Part shown: positions 12,552-46,469 of the stretch, piece after piece
How positions within the stretch are numbered: the stretch's first letter is position 1
How the letters are laid out: the number at the start of each line of letters is the position of its first letter
IMG/VR virus record: IMGVR_UViG_3300003465_000373
Coordinates: 1-58,404 of that record
DNA from: a virus
Lineage: Duplodnaviria; Caudoviricetes
Length of the DNA stretch: 58,404 nucleotides
Direction: 5' to 3' (one strand)
Program-made: the position numbers and the translations under genes
Notes under the pieces: generated by a model
Seen by the model: the letters and a program-made list of their open reading frames with translations, nothing else
The model's database searches: none
Told to the model about the DNA's origin: nothing

Positions 12552-12629
12552 TGGAACTGGCCGGACTCGAACCGAGCATTTTGCCCCTCTTAGGTGGGGT
12601 GGCTTTCTCCTGTTAAGCCTTACAGTCCC
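12552..12629 (-). ncRNA. non-canonical tRNA with Ala-type acceptor and ambiguous CTAA loop
   Basis: GGGACTG/CAGTTCC-A (G3:U70), 5-bp D stem, CCCC-ACCTAAGA-GGGG. Confidence 0.6.
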
Positions 12630-13919: not shown

Positions 13920-13925
13920 AAAATG

Positions 13926-13999
13926 CTGCTGCGGGGGACTCGAACCACCTCCTGCTCCCTCAAATGGGAGCTATGCTGCCCATGATACACCACGCAACA
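13926..13999 (-). pseudogene. Gln(TTG)-like tRNA with 6-nt anticodon loop
   Basis: GCTCCC-ATTTGA-GGGAGC, U1-A72, imperfect T stem. Confidence 0.6.
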
Positions 14000-14056
14000 G
14001 TTTTGGACCATAACCGAATTGTCAAAGAACTTCCCACCCAGAGGGGGGTTGTCAAG

Positions 14057-20435: not shown

Positions 20436-21614
20436 TTATGACAACTGCCTTTCCGGTATCGCAGCCCCACTTTGAATCAGGTGACTCTTTGTCTCCTCAA
20501 TCAGTTGGCCGAGCCACTTGATGTACGGCGTACCGCCAGTGCCGGTCGGGTTATCGACTCGCTTCTGGATGTAATTCACGGCGTAGTCGAAGTGCTGCTG
20601 ACGGAATTTGATAAGCTCCTCCACGCAAGCGTTGTACGCCTCGATTGTGTTTTTGACTGCTCCCGACCCCGGCTTTTGTTCATGGTTGTGTATGATGTAG
20701 TGTCGGACGCCGGTGATGCCGTCCATGTAGGCCAGGTGCTCAGGCGGCATGTAGTCCCGCATCTCGTCCAGGTGGTGCGTCAACATCGAGTCTTCATGCT
20801 TGATGCCAAGGAACTTCAGTAGGCTTGGCACAATGCTGCTCTGGGCACCAGTCTCGCCACGGTAGTTCTGCGGCTCATTATCAAAGCAGCCCTCATACAC
20901 GACATCGGTGAAGCCGAAGATATAGGGGCGGACCTGAGAGTAGTACACATCCGGGCTGCACCCTTCCGGCATCCTGGCCAGGGTCGCATTCATGGCTACT
21001 AGACTCTTGTGGACACGCTCAAGAGCCGGTTGCTGGACGCTCGACTTGTACACTTCATAGCCCTTGTACTCTGCGATGGCCTGCAACGCCTCCGCTGCCC
21101 TGGCCTCAATGTCAACATGAACCAGGATGAACCAATCCTCGTCCTTCTTGGCCTTTCGGGTGAAGTTCTGAAGAAGCTCGATGTTGCCGAGTTCAATGGG
21201 GCCGTTCTGGTCGATCCGCTTCCAGTTGTGCAAGCAGTAAGAGGCATACGACAGGATGGGCGGACGACCAACTGCCTTCGCCAGCCGCACAAGGGGTTGA
21301 GCGATGTAGTAGGGGATCGACTTCTGTACCTTGCCACGGTAATCCCTGGCATGGATCACAGCACTGGCGATGTAGGAGAAGAGCATAAAAGCCCGCTCCA
21401 CCGCCATGTCATTCTCGCAGTCGATGAACTCGGTAAGGCTAAAGTGCTTGTCGAAGATCGGGTGGGTGGTGATGTACTCCTGGAGTCGGCCCTCGTCCAC
21501 GAGGTCGGGGAGATCACGACACAGTTGCTCCAGATAGGCGAACTCACGCACCCGGATGGCTTCCAGTGGGTCTTTATTGGGCAGAAAGCCACGGTCTTGC
21601 AAGGTCCATTTCAT
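20436..21614 (-). CDS. indoleamine 2,3-dioxygenase family heme enzyme
   Basis: RPPILSYASY..NW, EDWFILVHVDIE, GETGAQSS, MRDYMPPEH, FRQQH, GTGGT motifs. Confidence 0.9.
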   Translation of the reverse strand: MKWTLQDRGFLPNKDPLEAIRVREFAYLEQLCRDLPDLVDEGRLQEYITTHPIFDKHFSLTEFIDCENDMAVERAFMLFSYIASAVIHARDYRGKVQKSIPYYIAQPLVRLAKAVGRPPILSYASYCLHNWKRIDQNGPIELGNIELLQNFTRKAKKDEDWFILVHVDIEARAAEALQAIAEYKGYEVYKSSVQQPALERVHKSLVAMNATLARMPEGCSPDVYYSQVRPYIFGFTDVVYEGCFDNEPQNYRGETGAQSSIVPSLLKFLGIKHEDSMLTHHLDEMRDYMPPEHLAYMDGITGVRHYIIHNHEQKPGSGAVKNTIEAYNACVEELIKFRQQHFDYAVNYIQKRVDNPTGTGGTPYIKWLGQLIEETKSHLIQSGAAIPERQLS

Positions 21615-21821
21615 GACGAAGGCCCTGTGAACGTCTTAAGTTAACAGTAAACGATCCTGGTGTTGTCGTTGATGCACGGCCAGATGCACTGAAAAAGCTC
21701 AGTATCCCTGAATGACTTCATATGCTCCCTTGGAACCAACAGCACGTCGATGATAGCCCCTTTGATGGGGATGTGCCAGTTGAGGAAATCTTCGTGTTCC
21801 AACGCTATGAGCTTGCGTCCC

Positions 21822-22008
21822 TCAAATTCCAAGGTCTTCATTCTTCAGTTCCTCATCACCCTTGATCCTAGCTACCATGTTGCTGAGCCACTTGCCAAGG
21901 GTGGTGTCTTCATATTCATCCCAAACCTCCGCAAGAAGAGAATACAACTCCTCTTTGCATTCCTGCATGACTTGTTGCTTCACCAGTTCTTCCTCGTGGT
22001 CGGACATA
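21822..22008 (-). CDS. small hypothetical protein
   Basis: ORF from MSDHEEE just after tRNA-Leu; start approximate. Confidence 0.45.
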
Positions 22009-22010
22009 AA

Positions 22011-22093
22011 TACCGGCAGAGGGACTTGAACCCCCACGTCCTTTCGGACACCTGCTCTTGAGGCAGGCGTGTCTTCCGTTTCACCATGCCGGC
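22011..22093 (-). tRNA. tRNA-Leu(CAA), long variable arm
   Basis: CCTGC-CTCAAGA-GCAGG; V arm GTCC-GAAA-GGAC. Confidence 0.93.
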
Positions 22094-22192
22094 GTTGGAG
22101 GCAGTTGAAAGTCTGCGGGGCTAATCCCCGCTCACTACCGGCGATCCCGCCGACCACTGCCTCCTGTGCCATACTCCTACGATGGAGTGGCG

Positions 22193-23080
22193 TTAATTTG
22201 GCCTTTGGTTCGCCCGTGTGGCTTCAAGGAGACTCTTGTCGAGGTCGATGATATAGTCCCGACCGAAGTCCCCATTTTCAAGATTATCTATTAACGTCTG
22301 CGGTAAATTTTGTCGGATGTCGTTCCGCCGCATGAACGGCTCCGATACTGCCGACAGGGCAATCGCTGCCACCGTGTCCACGTCGCCACGCAAATTGACA
22401 ATCCATCGTAGCATGTCGGCCTGGTTGTTGTGCTCCATGATCGCCGTCATGGCTGCGTGGACACACTGGATGCCTTCAACACCCACCTTGCCACGCCACG
22501 CCTCCCGCCAGTTGTAGCCTGGCACATGGCCGTTAAGGTATGCAGGCAACCAGTGCTTCGGCTCCATCGTCTGATGGAAAAACAGGCCCATGAGAGCCGC
22601 AGCCACGGCAGCGTCCACGCCCTTTTTGGTCTTGTGTGTGATCTCGGCCTGAATTGTGGCCATTTCCTTGCACTGAGCGATGCTGTTTGCAAACACGCCG
22701 ACCGGGCCGACTCGCATCGCCGCCCCGGACTTTTCCGAGTCCGGCTTGATATTGGCCAGGAACCCGTCCGGCGTCTGATTATCCTTGTTCTCCAGGAACC
22801 CCTGAAAAGCACGGGAGTAGCCGTCACGGGGGTCACGCAGGAACACCGCCAGAAAGTGCTTGACGATATTCTGAGGCGTCCACTCGTCGCCCGAGACGAT
22901 GGCCTCAGCTACGGCGATGGACATCTGGGTGTCGTCGGTGTACATGCCGGGCTTGATGCCCTTGTGCTTACCGTGCTGGACGTAGCCATACTCAAAATTG
23001 CCACCCCATTTGTGCAGAGCTTCGTCGTTGTATTCGTATCCCGCTCCAAATGCGTCACCGATTGCACACTCCAACAGCAT
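22193..23080 (-). CDS. ADP-ribosylglycohydrolase (DraG/ARH family)
   Basis: AIGDAFG, YTDDTQM, SGAAMR, ITH, GDVDTVAAIA. Confidence 0.92.
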   Translation of the reverse strand: MLLECAIGDAFGAGYEYNDEALHKWGGNFEYGYVQHGKHKGIKPGMYTDDTQMSIAVAEAIVSGDEWTPQNIVKHFLAVFLRDPRDGYSRAFQGFLENKDNQTPDGFLANIKPDSEKSGAAMRVGPVGVFANSIAQCKEMATIQAEITHKTKKGVDAAVAAALMGLFFHQTMEPKHWLPAYLNGHVPGYNWREAWRGKVGVEGIQCVHAAMTAIMEHNNQADMLRWIVNLRGDVDTVAAIALSAVSEPFMRRNDIRQNLPQTLIDNLENGDFGRDYIIDLDKSLLEATRANQRPN

Positions 23081-23320
23081 GATGGCCTCCTTAGCCGGCG
23101 AACGAAAGGTATGCCTTGTTCTTTTCCTGCTCGACGCCCAAGGCAAGGACATGCGTCATCCGCTGAAGTTCCTTCAACACATTCTTGCTGCTGATGTCGA
23201 TGTAAGGGATGCGGTCAGCAGGGCAACTCACATCACCGAGCATCTGGTTGATGTTGTGGGCCTGGCCGACGATGACCATGAGTCTGGCCCTGATTTCGTT
23301 AAGTTCGGCCTTGTTTACCA

Positions 23321-24063: not shown

Positions 24064-24139
24064 TGGAGACAGAGGGACTCGAACCCTCGACCATGAGCTT
24101 CCACTTGGGCCTTAACTCCCGGTCACGCCTGTTATCCCC
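24064..24139 (-). ncRNA. minimal tmRNA tRNA-like-domain mimic
   Basis: GGGGATA/TGTCTCC-A (G3:U70), stemless D loop, GACC/GGTC helix, T arm GAGGG-TTCGAGT-CCCTC, no mRNA-like domain. Confidence 0.65.
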
Positions 24140-24435
24140 TATAGCGTCTGCTTTCCACGCAGTATATCCCAAAACATCACCCAATCGCACGCCTTGGCCC
24201 AGAGCGGATTGGTAAACGCCGCTGGATGGTTTCTTTCAAAAACGAAATGACCAGTCCAGGCAAATGGGTAGACTACAAACGGCACGAGCGGCAAGAGCAG
24301 CAAGTACCAGCCCCCGTGGGCCAGGATGGTGAACAACACCACCAGGGTCGCAATCTGCCCCATAAAATGGAGCCGCCGACACCAGATGTTCTGGTGAAGG
24401 CTTAAGTAGTATTTATAGTAATCCCAGAAACTCAA
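24139..24435 (-). CDS. DUF962/Mpo1-like membrane protein
   Basis: YYLSLHQN..CRRLHF.G, Y.FAW.GHFVFERN.PA.F..P.W. Confidence 0.85.
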   Translation of the reverse strand: MSFWDYYKYYLSLHQNIWCRRLHFMGQIATLVVLFTILAHGGWYLLLLPLVPFVVYPFAWTGHFVFERNHPAAFTNPLWAKACDWVMFWDILRGKQTL

Positions 24436-24698
24436 CTGTCGATCTCCTCGATGGTCACTTGGTTCTTGAACGGCTTTTCCGCTTGCGGACTCTCTTCCAA
24501 TCCCTTGTTGCTGGAATACCGAAACCTCTCATAGTACATGAGGCCAGTAGGCCCAAGCAATGGTTGCACACTGAGAACCTTCTTTGCCCACAATTGAGGA
24601 TATATCCTCCGCACGAGAGGTATCGTAAACCGCTTATATTGTACGTCTTCCGGCTCGATCCGCTCCTGGATTAAGCCTGGCGTTTCGCCGTTGCTCAT
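24432..24698 (-). CDS. short protein carrying a copy of a major capsid protein segment
   Basis: KRFTIPLVRRIYPQLWAKKVLSVQPLLGPTGLMYYERFRYSSNKG closely matches the gp23 in this window. Confidence 0.85.
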   Translation of the reverse strand: MSNGETPGLIQERIEPEDVQYKRFTIPLVRRIYPQLWAKKVLSVQPLLGPTGLMYYERFRYSSNKGLEESPQAEKPFKNQVTIEEIDS

Positions 24699-24961
24699 TC
24701 TCTGTTGTTGTTTCTTCGATCCGCACTTGGTTGGCGGGCCAGCCGCCATATGTACCATCGGCACTTGCGGCCTTTTTCTTTACTTCATCCCGGCAGCGGC
24801 CCACCATGTCTTTTGAGAAATAGCCGATCATGTCACCTACTTCGAGGCAACACACGTCAACGCACTTCTCCATGATGAACGTCCACGTCGTCGGTTCTGC
24901 TTTCTTTCTGCCGGTAATGAACGTGGACTCGACATGCAGATCAACTTCTTTGCTCATAAAG

Positions 24962-28389: not shown

Positions 28390-28683
28390 CTATCTATGCT
28401 TCTTCTGCTTGGAATCGTAAAGCCCTGTGTTCTTCAACGTCCTCTGGACCGATAACAAGTCCATCGCCGTCATGATGCTGTTGGCCCTCATGCGGCGAAG
28501 GATGATGAACAGCGACGTGTCCTTGTGCCGAAAGATCGTGGCTTTCACTTGCCGACCCTGCGGCTGGACTTCTATCGGCTCTGCGGTCCAGCCAAGTTCC
28601 TCCAAAGCGGAGCGTACCTCACCGTACCGATAGACCGGTCTAACGTCCAGGAGGAAGTCCATCAACTGCTGGCTGGTCTTCAT
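28390..28683 (-). CDS. hypothetical protein
   Basis: 97-aa ORF. Confidence 0.6.
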   Translation of the reverse strand: MKTSQQLMDFLLDVRPVYRYGEVRSALEELGWTAEPIEVQPQGRQVKATIFRHKDTSLFIILRRMRANSIMTAMDLLSVQRTLKNTGLYDSKQKKHR

Positions 28684-45032: not shown

Positions 45033-46469
45033 TTAGATGACGAAGTTCGCAATGCTCATACGAGCGTAGAACTTGGCACCTTCACGCAACAACTTCTTTC
45101 CATAACGGGTCAAGATACCCTTGCGTGGGCAGAAGCTCTCAGGATCAAGAACAACTGGAGTCTGGGTCAACGGTACATATGGACAGTAGAAGTAACCCGA
45201 GTCCATATAACTATCACCACGGTATCCCATGAGAATCTGTCCAGATGGGAACAATGGGTCTTTGTACAACCGCCACCGGTTGTTAACAGTACCAACGTAC
45301 TGGATACCAAGAGACGAAGTGAACGTCTCAGATGGAGTCGGTGCGAAACCTGCGGTTGCCGTCTCGAAGATGGAGGCGACTTCAGGGCTGGTCACAAGCC
45401 AGTTGCAGCCACCACGCAGCGTCTTCCGGTGGACGACGTTGCTAACTTCAACAACCTTGACGTACAGAGACTCGTACTTTTCCTTGATCGTGTCACCCAG
45501 GGCTGTGTTGAAATCCCATGCCGCAACCGTACCTGCGTTGTTACGGAGGTCGGTGAGAACTTCACGGTCAATTTCCAGGTTAATTTCCTGGGCCAGAACT
45601 GCGGTCAACTCGGCCTCTGCGTCCAAGTTGTGCTGGGAACGCAAGTCCTGCTGGGCCTCGTAGCTCCAGACTGCCTTCAACTTGCGAGTCTTGGCCGTGA
45701 TGTCTTCCGACTCAATGACCAAGTTCACTTCTGGCAGGTCTTGGTTGCATTCCATGTTGTACTCGTAAGAGGCAACGATGGAGTTAGCACCTGGGTCTGC
45801 GGACCAAGTGAAGGTTACAACACCACTCGTGGCGTTGAGGGTAGCGGCAGTTACCTTCGGGGAAGGCGTGCCGATGTCAACGAACACGATAGAGCCGGCG
45901 GCGTTCGTGGAGAACGTCTGGATTGCAACTGCACCGTCATACACGGTTCCCAAGAACGTGCCGCTGAAGACCGGAGTCTTCTCCAACGTGTAGGTGAGGC
46001 TCGTGCCGCCACCGGCGTTGTTCTGCGTCTCGTTCTGGACGAACTGCGACGTGTAGAAGATGTCCAAGTTGCCATCACCAGATGCCAACTGCTGGAGGGA
46101 CGAAGAGTCGTCCGATGGGAAGCCACCCTGGTTGGTCGCACCACGCATCGCACCCTTGTTGGAGGAGTAGCGGAAGCGGAGGTAGTACACAAGGCCAGTT
46201 GGACCCAAGAGCGGCTGAACGCTAACAATCTTGTTTGCGATCAACTGCGGGTAAATACGGCGTACCAACGGAATAGAGATACGCTTGAATTGTGCGATGT
46301 CGCTCGTGTCGGTCGAAACCTCATTGATGAGCCTCTGGTTTTCCAGAAGGACGGCGGTCGTTCCCCTGACGAAGCGATCATTGATGCCTTCGAGAAGGCC
46401 AACCTCACTCCAACGACGCTCCAACACGGCAGCTTCGTTGAGCAGGCGAGAGTTCATACTCATGTTCAT
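45033..46469 (-). CDS. gp23: major capsid protein (T4 gp23-like)
   Basis: TAVLLENQ, SVQPL.GPTGL, AKTRKLKA.WS.EAQQDL..HNLDAEAEL, YCPYVPL, P.KG..TRYG. Confidence 0.97.
   Translation of the reverse strand: MNMSMNSRLLNEAAVLERRWSEVGLLEGINDRFVRGTTAVLLENQRLINEVSTDTSDIAQFKRISIPLVRRIYPQLIANKIVSVQPLLGPTGLVYYLRFRYSSNKGAMRGATNQGGFPSDDSSSLQQLASGDGNLDIFYTSQFVQNETQNNAGGGTSLTYTLEKTPVFSGTFLGTVYDGAVAIQTFSTNAAGSIVFVDIGTPSPKVTAATLNATSGVVTFTWSADPGANSIVASYEYNMECNQDLPEVNLVIESEDITAKTRKLKAVWSYEAQQDLRSQHNLDAEAELTAVLAQEINLEIDREVLTDLRNNAGTVAAWDFNTALGDTIKEKYESLYVKVVEVSNVVHRKTLRGGCNWLVTSPEVASIFETATAGFAPTPSETFTSSLGIQYVGTVNNRWRLYKDPLFPSGQILMGYRGDSYMDSGYFYCPYVPLTQTPVVLDPESFCPRKGILTRYGKKLLREGAKFYARMSIANFVI

What the first reader, a model, noticed from the sequence alone, without database searches (positions are those of the whole stretch)
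24064..24139. 76-nt mini-tmRNA: tRNA-like domain without a tag reading frame
It has the tmRNA hallmarks of GGGG start, G3:U70, A73, stemless D loop, GAC-initiated helix 2 and a T arm. Helix 2 is simply capped, so there is no mRNA-like domain. It could sequester SmpB or add Ala without tagging for degradation (inference).
Basis: partly seen in the sequence, partly recalled or inferred. Interest (0 to 1): 0.72.

Follow-up and report, generated by a model that had tools for sequence, protein, structure and literature searches.

The report
Tag-less mini-tmRNA gene in phage
A giant T4-like phage carries a 76-base gene that keeps only the alanine-accepting, tRNA-like end of the bacterial ribosome-rescue RNA (tmRNA); this kind of stripped-down RNA is already known from one published phage, so it is a divergent new member rather than a new kind.

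Summary
Window 24139..24064 (minus strand) encodes a 76-nt RNA with a 7-bp acceptor stem (G3:U70, discriminator A), a stemless GG-containing D loop, a long capped helix 2 and a T arm. It has no anticodon loop and no tag frame.

ARAGORN and Rfam call nothing there at their thresholds. It is nonetheless the best tmRNA-model match in the window (23 bits, cut-off 47).

A covariance model built from 57 other phage sequences, including the published "TLD only" tmRNA of mycobacteriophage DS6A but not this element, scores it 49.0 bits over its full length. The best of the window's 49 tRNAs scores 31.6.

Its 14-nt helix-2 cap is identical to that of a canonical TLD-only RNA that passes Rfam's tmRNA cut-off.

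It deviates at the helix-2/T-arm junction: UC in place of the near-invariant GAC, giving Watson-Crick pairs instead of tandem G·A.

Function is inferred. It is probably Ala-charged and bound by SmpB, and either competes with host tmRNA (reported for a similar molecule) or rescues ribosomes without tagging.

A complete 533-kb relative encodes SmpB and only a tag-less relative of this RNA.

The kind is published, and this scan has flagged it before on other DNA. Verdict: a new member of a known kind.

The parts
24064..24139 (-). Whole RNA gene, 76 nt (RNA position p = 24140 - window coordinate); no CCA encoded
   Evidence: Full-length matches to R1 (42.9 bits) and R2 (49.0 bits). Best RF00023 hit of the window.
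24133..24139 (-). Acceptor stem, 5' strand GGGGAUA (G3 at 24137). The first G is also the last base of the upstream ORF's TAG stop.
24125..24132 (-). D-loop analogue ACAGGCGU. Unpaired, contains GG, has no D stem. Counted as 10 nt with the following GA.
   Evidence: family range 9-14 nt
24115..24124 (-). Helix 2, 5' strand GACCGGGAGU
   Evidence: Seven of the family's 8 helix-2 pairs show compensatory changes.
24099..24114 (-). Apical cap of helix 2, UAAGGCCCAAGUGGAA. It has an A-rich 5' bulge and a CC-CAAGU-GG mini-hairpin. The 14 nt at 24101-24114 are identical in L297 and in the G001 element.
24089..24098 (-). Helix 2, 3' strand GCUCAUGGUC. Its last two bases, UC, replace the family's GAC junction and pair with the 5' GA.
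24072..24088 (-). T arm GAGGG-UUCGAGU-CCCUC
24065..24071 (-). Acceptor stem, 3' strand UGUCUCC (U70 at 24067)
24064..24064 (-). Discriminator A (A73 in tRNA numbering)
24139..24435 (-). Context: upstream Mpo1-like ORF (98 aa) on the same strand. Its stop codon overlaps nucleotide 1 of the RNA.
   Evidence: Pfam PF06127, 97.8 bits
23827..24048 (-). Context: downstream 73-aa ORF on the same strand. GGAG lies 8 nt before its ATG, and the ATG lies 15 nt after the RNA's 3' end.
   Evidence: no Pfam family

Best explanation
This is a gene for a tag-less tmRNA of the 'TLD only' type first described in mycobacteriophage DS6A. I put membership of that family at about 0.85.

Proposed mechanism, all steps inferred:
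1. The RNA is cut out of a minus-strand polycistronic transcript by the tRNA-processing enzymes.
2. It receives CCA post-transcriptionally, as all 49 tRNAs of the window must.
3. Host AlaRS charges it with alanine through G3:U70 and A73.
4. SmpB and EF-Tu bind it, and it enters ribosomes stalled with an empty A site.
5. Helix 2 is capped and no resume codon or tag frame exists, so it cannot direct tagging.

The net effect I think most likely is competition with host tmRNA for SmpB and for stalled ribosomes. That would damp ssrA tagging and proteolysis during infection.
For: Anatomy:
- Shown directly by the sequence and fold.

Family membership:
- A pattern scan of IMG/VR gave 114 loci and 90 distinct sequences. 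73 of those 90 loci, plus the window, match model R1.
- On 57 sequences that exclude this element, 96.7% of cells are paired, against 40-55% when partners are slid. 18 of 23 pairs show double changes. The 74-sequence alignment gives the same picture.
- R1, built only from IMG/VR seeds, finds exactly one hit in DS6A, at 28478-28557 (64.1 bits). That is an unannotated gap between gp33 and gp34.
- This element scores 49.0 bits on R2. For comparison: window tRNAs reach 31.6 or less, D-armless tRNA-Ala(UGC) genes 33.6-40.7, and the ends of a full tmRNA 32.1.
- The 14-nt cap is identical to that of L297. L297 has the canonical GGUAUCGAC...GGAC junction and scores 53.6 bits on RF00023, above the cut-off of 47.

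Function:
- Hudson et al. 2014 (PMC4131195, passages read) state that a molecule similar to the DS6A TLD strongly inhibits tmRNA whether or not it is chargeable, perhaps by titrating SmpB. They cite Mao et al. 2009.
- PMC11915505 (passages read) says the DS6A form inhibits endogenous tmRNA in E. coli.
- 49 of 50 records carrying such genes encode no SmpB, and 13 of the 14 that are at least 90% complete. They would therefore have to use the host's SmpB.

Recalled, not from a call: G3:U70 and A73 are the AlaRS identity elements.
Against: - No expression, charging or binding data exist for this element.
- The junction before the T stem is UC. In the 74-sequence alignment, 58 have a junction ending in AC and only 2 have UC: this element and L030.
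- Rfam's tmRNA consensus and a full-length tmRNA both read GGAC at that position. A contact that matters for SmpB could therefore be altered.
- The RF00023 score of 23 bits is far below the cut-off of 47 and only 2.6 bits above a tRNA-Pro.
- No orthologue in a syntenic position was found.
- The complete relative G001 encodes its own SmpB. That fits a productive partnership better than sequestration.
- The 5' GGGG, GG, GAC, T loop and UCCA of most family members were imposed by my search pattern, so their conservation is not independent evidence.
Confidence: 0.5

Rival explanations
1. Same RNA, the opposite outcome: a productive, tag-free rescue RNA. It would work with a phage-encoded SmpB, donate alanine to the stalled chain, and leave the ribosome to be released by other factors. 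Phage proteins made from broken mRNAs would then be spared from proteolysis. This is what is assumed for the CDS-less tmRNAs of jakobid mitochondria.
For: - G001 is a complete 532,729-bp relative (major capsid protein about 81% identical). It encodes SmpB (186.9 bits, 176-aa open frame).
- G001 has no full-length tmRNA. Its best RF00023 hit, at 21.6 bits, is its own tag-less G3:U70/A73 RNA with the same 14-nt cap, and its best RF04321 hit is 22.6 bits, below cut-off.
- PMC11915505 (passages read) reports that CDS-less mitochondrial tmRNAs co-occur with SmpB.
Against: - The window holds no SmpB. It is only about 12% of a genome, so this says little.
- 0 of 5 further relatives (25-69% complete) have SmpB.
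- One relative, G002, has a full tmRNA with the tag AENDLRLAA.
- The only experimental report I could read about describes inhibition.
- The G001 RNA has a 4-bp D stem, so it is not the same molecule.
Confidence: 0.25
2. A decayed tRNA-Ala gene: a pseudogene left over in a tRNA-rich region, with no function of its own.
For: - It lies in a 38-kb stretch with 49 tRNA genes on the same strand.
- The Rfam tRNA model gives a sub-threshold 22.2-bit partial match.
- The G001 relative keeps a D stem, which suggests descent from a cloverleaf.
- The window also holds other odd tRNA-like genes.
Against: - All 7 acceptor pairs, all 5 T-stem pairs and 7 of 8 helix-2 pairs are intact.
- The unpaired cap is identical over 14 nt to that of two RNAs whose helix-2 sequences are entirely different.
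- Only 2 of the 50 occurrences of that 14-mer in IMG/VR lie in tRNA-like frames, and both sit at the same structural position.
- It scores 17 bits above any true tRNA of the window on the family model.
Confidence: 0.07
3. A tRNA mimic with a job outside trans-translation. Examples: a decoy for host tRNA-cleaving defence nucleases, or a ligand for a phage protein that recognises the conserved cap.
For: - The cap is conserved across unrelated phages, yet it is absent from the one full-length tmRNA I inspected, G002's. Its role is unexplained.
- The window and G001 carry several other tRNA-like genes with abnormal anticodon loops.
- The junction differs from the tmRNA consensus.
Against: - It has no anticodon loop for an anticodon nuclease to cut.
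- The rest of the molecule copies tmRNA-specific features: a stemless D loop and a GAC-initiated helix 2.
- Canonical relatives pass the tmRNA model.
- No candidate partner protein was identified.
Confidence: 0.08

Closest known systems
'TLD only' (CDS-less) tmRNA of Mycobacterium phage DS6A (tmRNA Website tmID 11587; Hudson, Lau & Williams 2014, PMC4131195; PMC11915505)
   Same: - Length of about 80 nt.
- GGGG start, G3:U70 and discriminator A.
- Stemless D loop with GG.
- GAC-initiated helix 2, capped by an A-rich bulge and a small CC...GG hairpin.
- T arm.
- No tag frame.
- Both match the same covariance models full length: DS6A 64.1 bits on R1, this element 42.9 on R1 and 49.0 on R2.
   Different: - DS6A has the canonical CAC junction and a GGUGGUCGAC D loop. 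This element has UC and GGCGUGAC.
- DS6A is a 60-kb temperate siphovirus of an actinobacterium with a lone gene. This is a T4-like phage, probably about 500 kb, with 49 or more tRNAs.
- Only the DS6A type has any experimental backing, and I know that only through citing papers.
Bacterial tmRNA (ssrA, Rfam RF00023)
   Same: The tRNA-like domain: acceptor stem with alanine identity, D loop without a stem, T arm, and helix 2 leaving from a GAC.
   Different: - It lacks the whole mRNA-like domain: about 300 nt, four pseudoknots, resume codon and tag frame.
- It scores 23 bits against a cut-off of 47.
- Its 3' junction reads GGUC, not GGAC.
CDS-less organellar tmRNAs (jakobid mitochondria, RF02544; two Mallomonadaceae plastids, PMC11915505)
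   Same: The concept is the same: a tmRNA reduced to its tRNA-like domain, thought to act with SmpB without tagging.
   Different: There is no sequence or profile match: RF02544 finds nothing in the window. The origin is different.
tRNA-Ala
   Same: G3:U70 and A73, the T arm, and the overall length.
   Different: It has no D stem, no 7-nt anticodon loop and no Ala anticodon. ARAGORN makes no call, and the Rfam tRNA model gives 22.2 bits against a cut-off of 29, on a partial alignment only.

Membership tests
TLD-only (CDS-less) phage tmRNA, DS6A type | Full-length match to a profile of the family that separates it from tRNAs | tested here: met
   R2 was built from 57 sequences including DS6A and L297, without this element. 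It scores the element 49.0 bits over positions 1-80 of 80, and the best window tRNA 31.6. R1 gives 42.9 against 26.2. 63 of the 73 other matches score higher than it on R1, so it sits at the divergent edge.
TLD-only (CDS-less) phage tmRNA, DS6A type | Helix 2 closed by a short cap in place of the mRNA-like domain: an A-rich 5' bulge plus a CC-N4-5-GG hairpin | tested here: met
   Alignment rows. 14 of 14 nt are identical to L297 and the G001 element.
TLD-only (CDS-less) phage tmRNA, DS6A type | Alanine identity set (G3:U70, A73) on a 7-bp acceptor stem | tested here: met
   Also present in DS6A, L297 and G001, none of which was found with the pattern that imposed it.
TLD-only (CDS-less) phage tmRNA, DS6A type | NAC (usually GAC) linker between helix 2 and the T stem | tested here: not met
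   The element has UC. 58 of 74 aligned sequences end this linker in AC, and 2 of 74 have UC.
TLD-only (CDS-less) phage tmRNA, DS6A type | Binds SmpB and inhibits tmRNA tagging | not testable with these tools
   Known only from statements in PMC4131195 and PMC11915505 about a similar or DS6A molecule. Mao et al. 2009 is not held.
tmRNA (RF00023) | Score at or above Rfam's gathering cut-off (47 bits) | tested here: not met
   23 bits
tmRNA (RF00023) | mRNA-like domain with resume codon, tag frame and stop | tested here: not met
   Only 36 nt lie between the D loop and the T arm. ARAGORN calls no tmRNA or tag.
tmRNA (RF00023) | tRNA-like domain: acceptor stem with G3:U70, stemless D loop, T arm, helix 2 from GAC | tested here: met
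tRNA (RF00005), as tRNA-Ala | Cloverleaf with D stem and 7-nt anticodon loop; score at or above 29 bits | tested here: not met
   22.2 bits, aligned to 24064-24119 only, with the anticodon arm deleted. ARAGORN makes no call.
mt-tmRNA (RF02544) | Match to the family model | tested here: not met
   0 matches at E <= 10 in the window

The most novel reading that the evidence does not exclude
In this clade of roughly 500-kb T4-like phages, the tag-less alanine-accepting RNA may be the dedicated partner of a phage-encoded SmpB. The pair would form a self-contained ribosome-rescue module that frees ribosomes without marking proteins for destruction. On this reading the 14-nt helix-2 cap is a previously unrecognised functional element of tag-less tmRNAs, for example a docking site that substitutes for the missing mRNA-like domain. 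That cap is conserved between unrelated phages but absent from the one full-length tmRNA I inspected.
Probability: 0.2. Interest if true: 0.6.

Novelty: new member of a known kind. Interest (0 to 1): 0.35.

Why it matters
Standard annotation (ARAGORN, Rfam cut-offs) misses these genes, so phage surveys of tmRNA undercount them. Two surveys I read in passages relied on ARAGORN (PMC7162821, PMC9004378).

One degenerate pattern alone recovered dozens of distinct, covarying examples from IMG/VR. In the papers I searched, only DS6A is named. A common phage RNA that tampers with, or replaces, the host's rescue-and-tag system would be a widespread and largely unstudied layer of phage control over host translation.

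This instance adds three things:
- a very large T4-like phage as carrier;
- a natural junction variant, with Watson-Crick pairs instead of tandem G.A, that could be used to probe what SmpB needs;
- a conserved cap whose role is open.

Tried and rejected
- Synteny. The 169-aa neighbour has no relatives in IMG/VR. 80 loci with Mpo1-like genes hold no family match at E <= 0.01 apart from two weak hits of 27 and 24.9 bits, which I did not examine. tblastx of the G001 and G002 RNA neighbourhoods against the window found nothing, apart from one 38-residue match about 4 kb from the element. The 169-aa and 264-aa neighbours have no match in 5 relatives. So I could not test whether a full tmRNA sits at the same spot in sister phages.\n- Closer orthologues. 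The 14-mer plus T-loop pattern in metagenome contigs gave one stretch, on a contig of the same length as L297's.\n- Expression. No RNA holder was listed, and no sequencing run of any kind. Read laying was therefore not used.\n- Own promoter or terminator. Counts of consensus sites did not exceed the shuffles: 5 against 3.0 +/- 1.6, and 7 against 4.6 +/- 2.4.\n- Jakobid mt-tmRNA model: no hit.\n- attP relic of a tmRNA-integrating phage: rejected. Both halves of the acceptor stem and the D loop are present, and in DS6A the gene lies about 10 kb from the integrase.\n- K-turn reading of the cap: considered by eye and dropped, because the G.A order does not fit the consensus as I recall it.\n- Mao et al. 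2009 could not be read. Supplements of the tmRNA database papers were not seen and may list more phage TLD-only sequences.\n- ARAGORN made overlapping tmRNA calls in 3 of 57 family loci, with implausible 15-33-aa tags. I treated these as spurious and did not follow them up.

Full report
**What is there**

On the minus strand, window 24139..24064 reads as a 76-nt RNA, in this order:
- acceptor strand GGGGAUA;
- ten bases with a GG, of which the last two (GA) open a GAC;
- a 36-nt hairpin;
- T arm GAGGG-UUCGAGU-CCCUC;
- acceptor strand UGUCUCC;
- an unpaired A.

The third acceptor pair is G.U. The minimum-energy fold gives exactly this three-helix layout, with no D stem and no 7-nt loop. The energy itself is unremarkable: z = -1.21, and 22 of 200 shuffles fold as well.

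The gene fills the gap between two ORFs on the same strand. Upstream is a 98-aa Mpo1-like ORF (PF06127, 97.8 bits), whose TAG stop shares its G with nucleotide 1 of the RNA. Downstream is a 73-aa ORF whose ATG lies 15 nt past the RNA, preceded by GGAG.

**The setting**

The window is a whole IMG/VR record that CheckV rates 12% complete. It carries:
- a T4-type major capsid protein (PF07068, 286.9 bits);
- a gp20 portal protein with an intein;
- 49 ARAGORN tRNA genes, all on the minus strand.

None of the 49 tRNAs encodes CCA, and neither does the element (the script finds the acceptor stem by a rough search). Capsid relatives at about 80% identity are numerous (381 loci). They include a complete 532,729-bp genome, G001. 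This is therefore a fragment of a very large T4-like phage.

**What standard tools say**

- ARAGORN calls nothing at the element.
- Rfam at gathering scores calls nothing there.
- At relaxed thresholds the tRNA model gives 22.2 bits (cut-off 29). It aligns only 24064-24119 and deletes the anticodon arm.
- The tmRNA model RF00023 has its best hit of the window exactly here, end to end, at 23 bits. The cut-off is 47, and the next hit is a tRNA-Pro at 20.4 bits.
- The jakobid mt-tmRNA model finds nothing.

**Relatives**

I scanned IMG/VR with a degenerate pattern (GGGG, 5-9 nt, GG, 3 nt, GAC, 20-50 nt, T loop, 7 nt, UCCA). It returned 114 stretches holding 90 distinct sequences. ARAGORN of the 90 as tRNAs, 8 of them D-armless tRNA-Ala(UGC). 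Most of the rest fold like the element.

A covariance model, R1, built from 7 of them matches 73 of the 90 loci at E <= 1e-4.

On a 57-sequence alignment that excludes the element:
- 96.7% of pair cells are standard pairs, against 40-55% when partners are slid by 1-3 columns;
- 18 of 23 pairs have changes on both sides;
- 7 of the 8 helix-2 pairs carry compensatory changes;
- 0 of 500 shuffles reach the observed covariation score.

The 74-sequence alignment that includes the element gives the same picture.

Two caveats apply. These alignments are fitted to the model. The bases fixed by my pattern cannot count as conserved. Helix 2, the cap, the T stem and acceptor pairs 4-7 were left free by the pattern.

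**Link to the literature**

Hudson, Lau and Williams 2014 (PMC4131195, passages read) list "Mycobacterium phage DS6A (TLD only)". [quoted passage not shown] They add that a similar molecule, chargeable or not, strongly inhibits tmRNA, perhaps by titrating SmpB (citing Mao et al. 2009, which is not held).

The 2025 tmRNA database paper (PMC11915505, passages read) names three kinds of CDS-less form: jakobid mitochondria, two plastids, and DS6A.

R1, which contains no DS6A sequence, finds exactly one hit in the DS6A genome. It lies at 28478-28557 and scores 64.1 bits, in an unannotated gap between gp33 and gp34. It has the same cap design. The IMG/VR family is therefore the DS6A type.

My searches found no other phage example in print:
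- "mini-tmRNA": 0 papers;
- "tmRNA" with "TLD only": 1 paper;
- "DS6A" with "tmRNA": 10 papers, listing only apart from the two above;
- "tmRNA-like" with "phage": 1 paper;
- one search returned nothing further.

Two phage surveys relied on ARAGORN (PMC7162821 and PMC9004378, passages read). ARAGORN needs a tag frame. I could not see supplements.

**Is this element a member?**

Evidence that it is:
- R1 scores it 42.9 bits full length, against 26.2 or less for the rest of the window.
- R2, built from 57 sequences including DS6A and L297 but not the element, scores it 49.0 bits. For comparison: the best window tRNA scores 31.6, D-armless tRNA-Ala(UGC) genes 33.6-40.7, and the joined ends of a full tmRNA 32.1.
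- Its cap, UAAGGCCCAAGUGG, fits the family consensus of an A-rich bulge, CC, a 4-5-nt loop and GG.
- That 14-mer occurs in 50 IMG/VR stretches. Only 2 are in tRNA-like frames, and both sit on top of helix 2.
- One of the two is L297, a canonical TLD-only RNA. It has a GGUAUCGAC D loop, a GGAC junction and an encoded CCA, and it passes Rfam's tmRNA cut-off at 53.6 bits. DS6A itself reaches only 34.7 bits.
- The three RNAs that share the cap have unrelated helix-2 sequences.

Evidence of divergence:
- 63 of the 73 other matches outscore it on R1.
- The linker before the T stem is UC. 58 of 74 aligned sequences end that linker in AC, and only this element and L030 have UC.
- Rfam's consensus and a real full-length tmRNA read GGAC at that position.
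- In the element, the 5' GA pairs with this UC by Watson-Crick pairs, so helix 2 runs straight into the T stem.

**The clade**

Among 33 records of capsid relatives, only G001 has an R1 hit at E <= 0.001. That hit, at G001:55504-55585, is an 82-nt cloverleaf. It has a 4-bp D stem, G3:U70 and A73, and the same 14-nt cap in place of an anticodon loop. ARAGORN labels it "tRNA-???". It is not syntenic with the element.

G001 encodes SmpB (186.9 bits). It has no full-length tmRNA by RF00023 (best hit 21.6 bits, which is this RNA) or by RF04321 (22.6 bits, below cut-off).

G002, 69% complete, has a full tmRNA with the tag AENDLRLAA and no SmpB.

The window has no SmpB.

Across 50 records that carry TLD-only genes, 1 has SmpB, and that one is G001. 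Among the 14 that are at least 90% complete, 1 does.

Other family statistics:
- 12 of 57 family loci have a tRNA within 1 kb.
- 21 of 57 encode CCA.

**Mechanism**

Shown: the anatomy, family membership, and the absence of a tag frame.

Inferred from established tmRNA biology and from statements in the two papers: processing, CCA addition, alanylation through G3:U70 and A73, SmpB and EF-Tu binding, and entry into stalled ribosomes.

I favour competition with host tmRNA-SmpB (0.5). It is the only effect reported for such a molecule, and most carriers lack SmpB. Tag-free rescue with a phage SmpB is the main rival (0.25), supported by G001. A decayed tRNA-Ala (0.07) fits poorly with intact helices and a conserved unpaired cap. 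A role outside trans-translation (0.08) cannot be excluded, because the cap is unexplained and the junction is atypical.

**Earlier notes of this scan**

After reaching the DS6A link myself, I found that this scan has flagged tag-less mini-tmRNAs in several other phage windows, with the same closest known relative. Nothing resembling this exact sequence was on file. Two of those notes report sister phages with a full tmRNA at the same spot. I looked for that here and could not test it, because the neighbourhood is not conserved.

**Verdict**

This is a real, divergent new member of a published kind. Interest is moderate, and comes mainly from three things: how common and unannotated the kind is, the natural junction variant, and the SmpB-plus-tag-less-RNA pairing in the complete relative.

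Noticed in passing
window 12552-12629 (-): A 78-nt tRNA-like gene that also has alanine identity: acceptor GGGACUG/CAGUUCC with G3:U70, and discriminator A. It has a 4-bp D stem, but only a 4-bp anticodon stem with an 8-nt loop, ACCUAAGA. ARAGORN does not call it and Rfam does not at its cut-off. It scores 21.8-24.9 bits on my models.
   Followed up: partly
window 7754-7826 (-) and 13925-14000 (-): ARAGORN reports 'tRNA-???' with a 2-nt anticodon at both, meaning tRNA-like genes with shortened (6-nt) anticodon loops. Together with the item above, the phage carries several tRNA look-alikes that should not decode normally.
   Followed up: no
window 789-864 (-): Rfam tRNA match of 37.2 bits, above cut-off, that ARAGORN does not call.
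   Followed up: no
window 3934-4006 (-): The only tRNA-Ala called, with anticodon CGC, folds with a bulged U in the 3' acceptor strand. No tRNA-Ala(UGC) or (GGC) is in the window.
   Followed up: no
window 24139-24141 (-): The TAG stop of the Mpo1-like ORF shares its G with nucleotide 1 of the RNA. Cutting out the RNA's 5' end would leave that mRNA without a stop codon, making it a natural substrate for ribosome rescue. This is like the smpB/ssrA overlap noted for Carsonella in PMC4131195.
   Followed up: no
window 24432-24764 (-): A 110-aa ORF matches only the first ~50 positions of the Gp23 major capsid profile (35.1 bits). It lies 20 kb from the full capsid gene at 45033-46469.
   Followed up: no
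window 52425-55004 (-): The T4-type portal (gp20) gene is interrupted by an intein splicing domain.
   Followed up: no
window 20436-23152 (-): Phage-borne homologues of indoleamine 2,3-dioxygenase (227.9 bits) and ADP-ribosylglycohydrolase (120.5 bits) sit next to each other.
   Followed up: no
L016, L023, L024, L036, L080, L096 (68 nt); L090, L101 (74-75 nt): IMG/VR phages carry tRNA-Ala(UGC) genes with no D stem. They have a tmRNA-like GG...GAC D loop, a long anticodon stem and a normal UGC loop. They look like intermediates between tRNA-Ala and the tag-less tmRNA. They score 33.6-38.7 bits on R2 (only three of them, L016, L024 and L096, were scored).
   Followed up: partly
G001:89409-89492 (L346:1501-1585): A tRNA-Phe(GAA)-like gene of 85 nt with a 7-bp anticodon stem and a 15-nt loop. 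It is a second tRNA with an expanded anticodon loop in the complete relative.
   Followed up: no
L030:927-994 (-), L121:538-617 (-): Two other IMG/VR tag-less RNAs close the helix-2/T-arm junction with Watson-Crick pairs (GAC...GUC, GGAC...GUCC), as the window's element does. The variant therefore recurs.
   Followed up: partly
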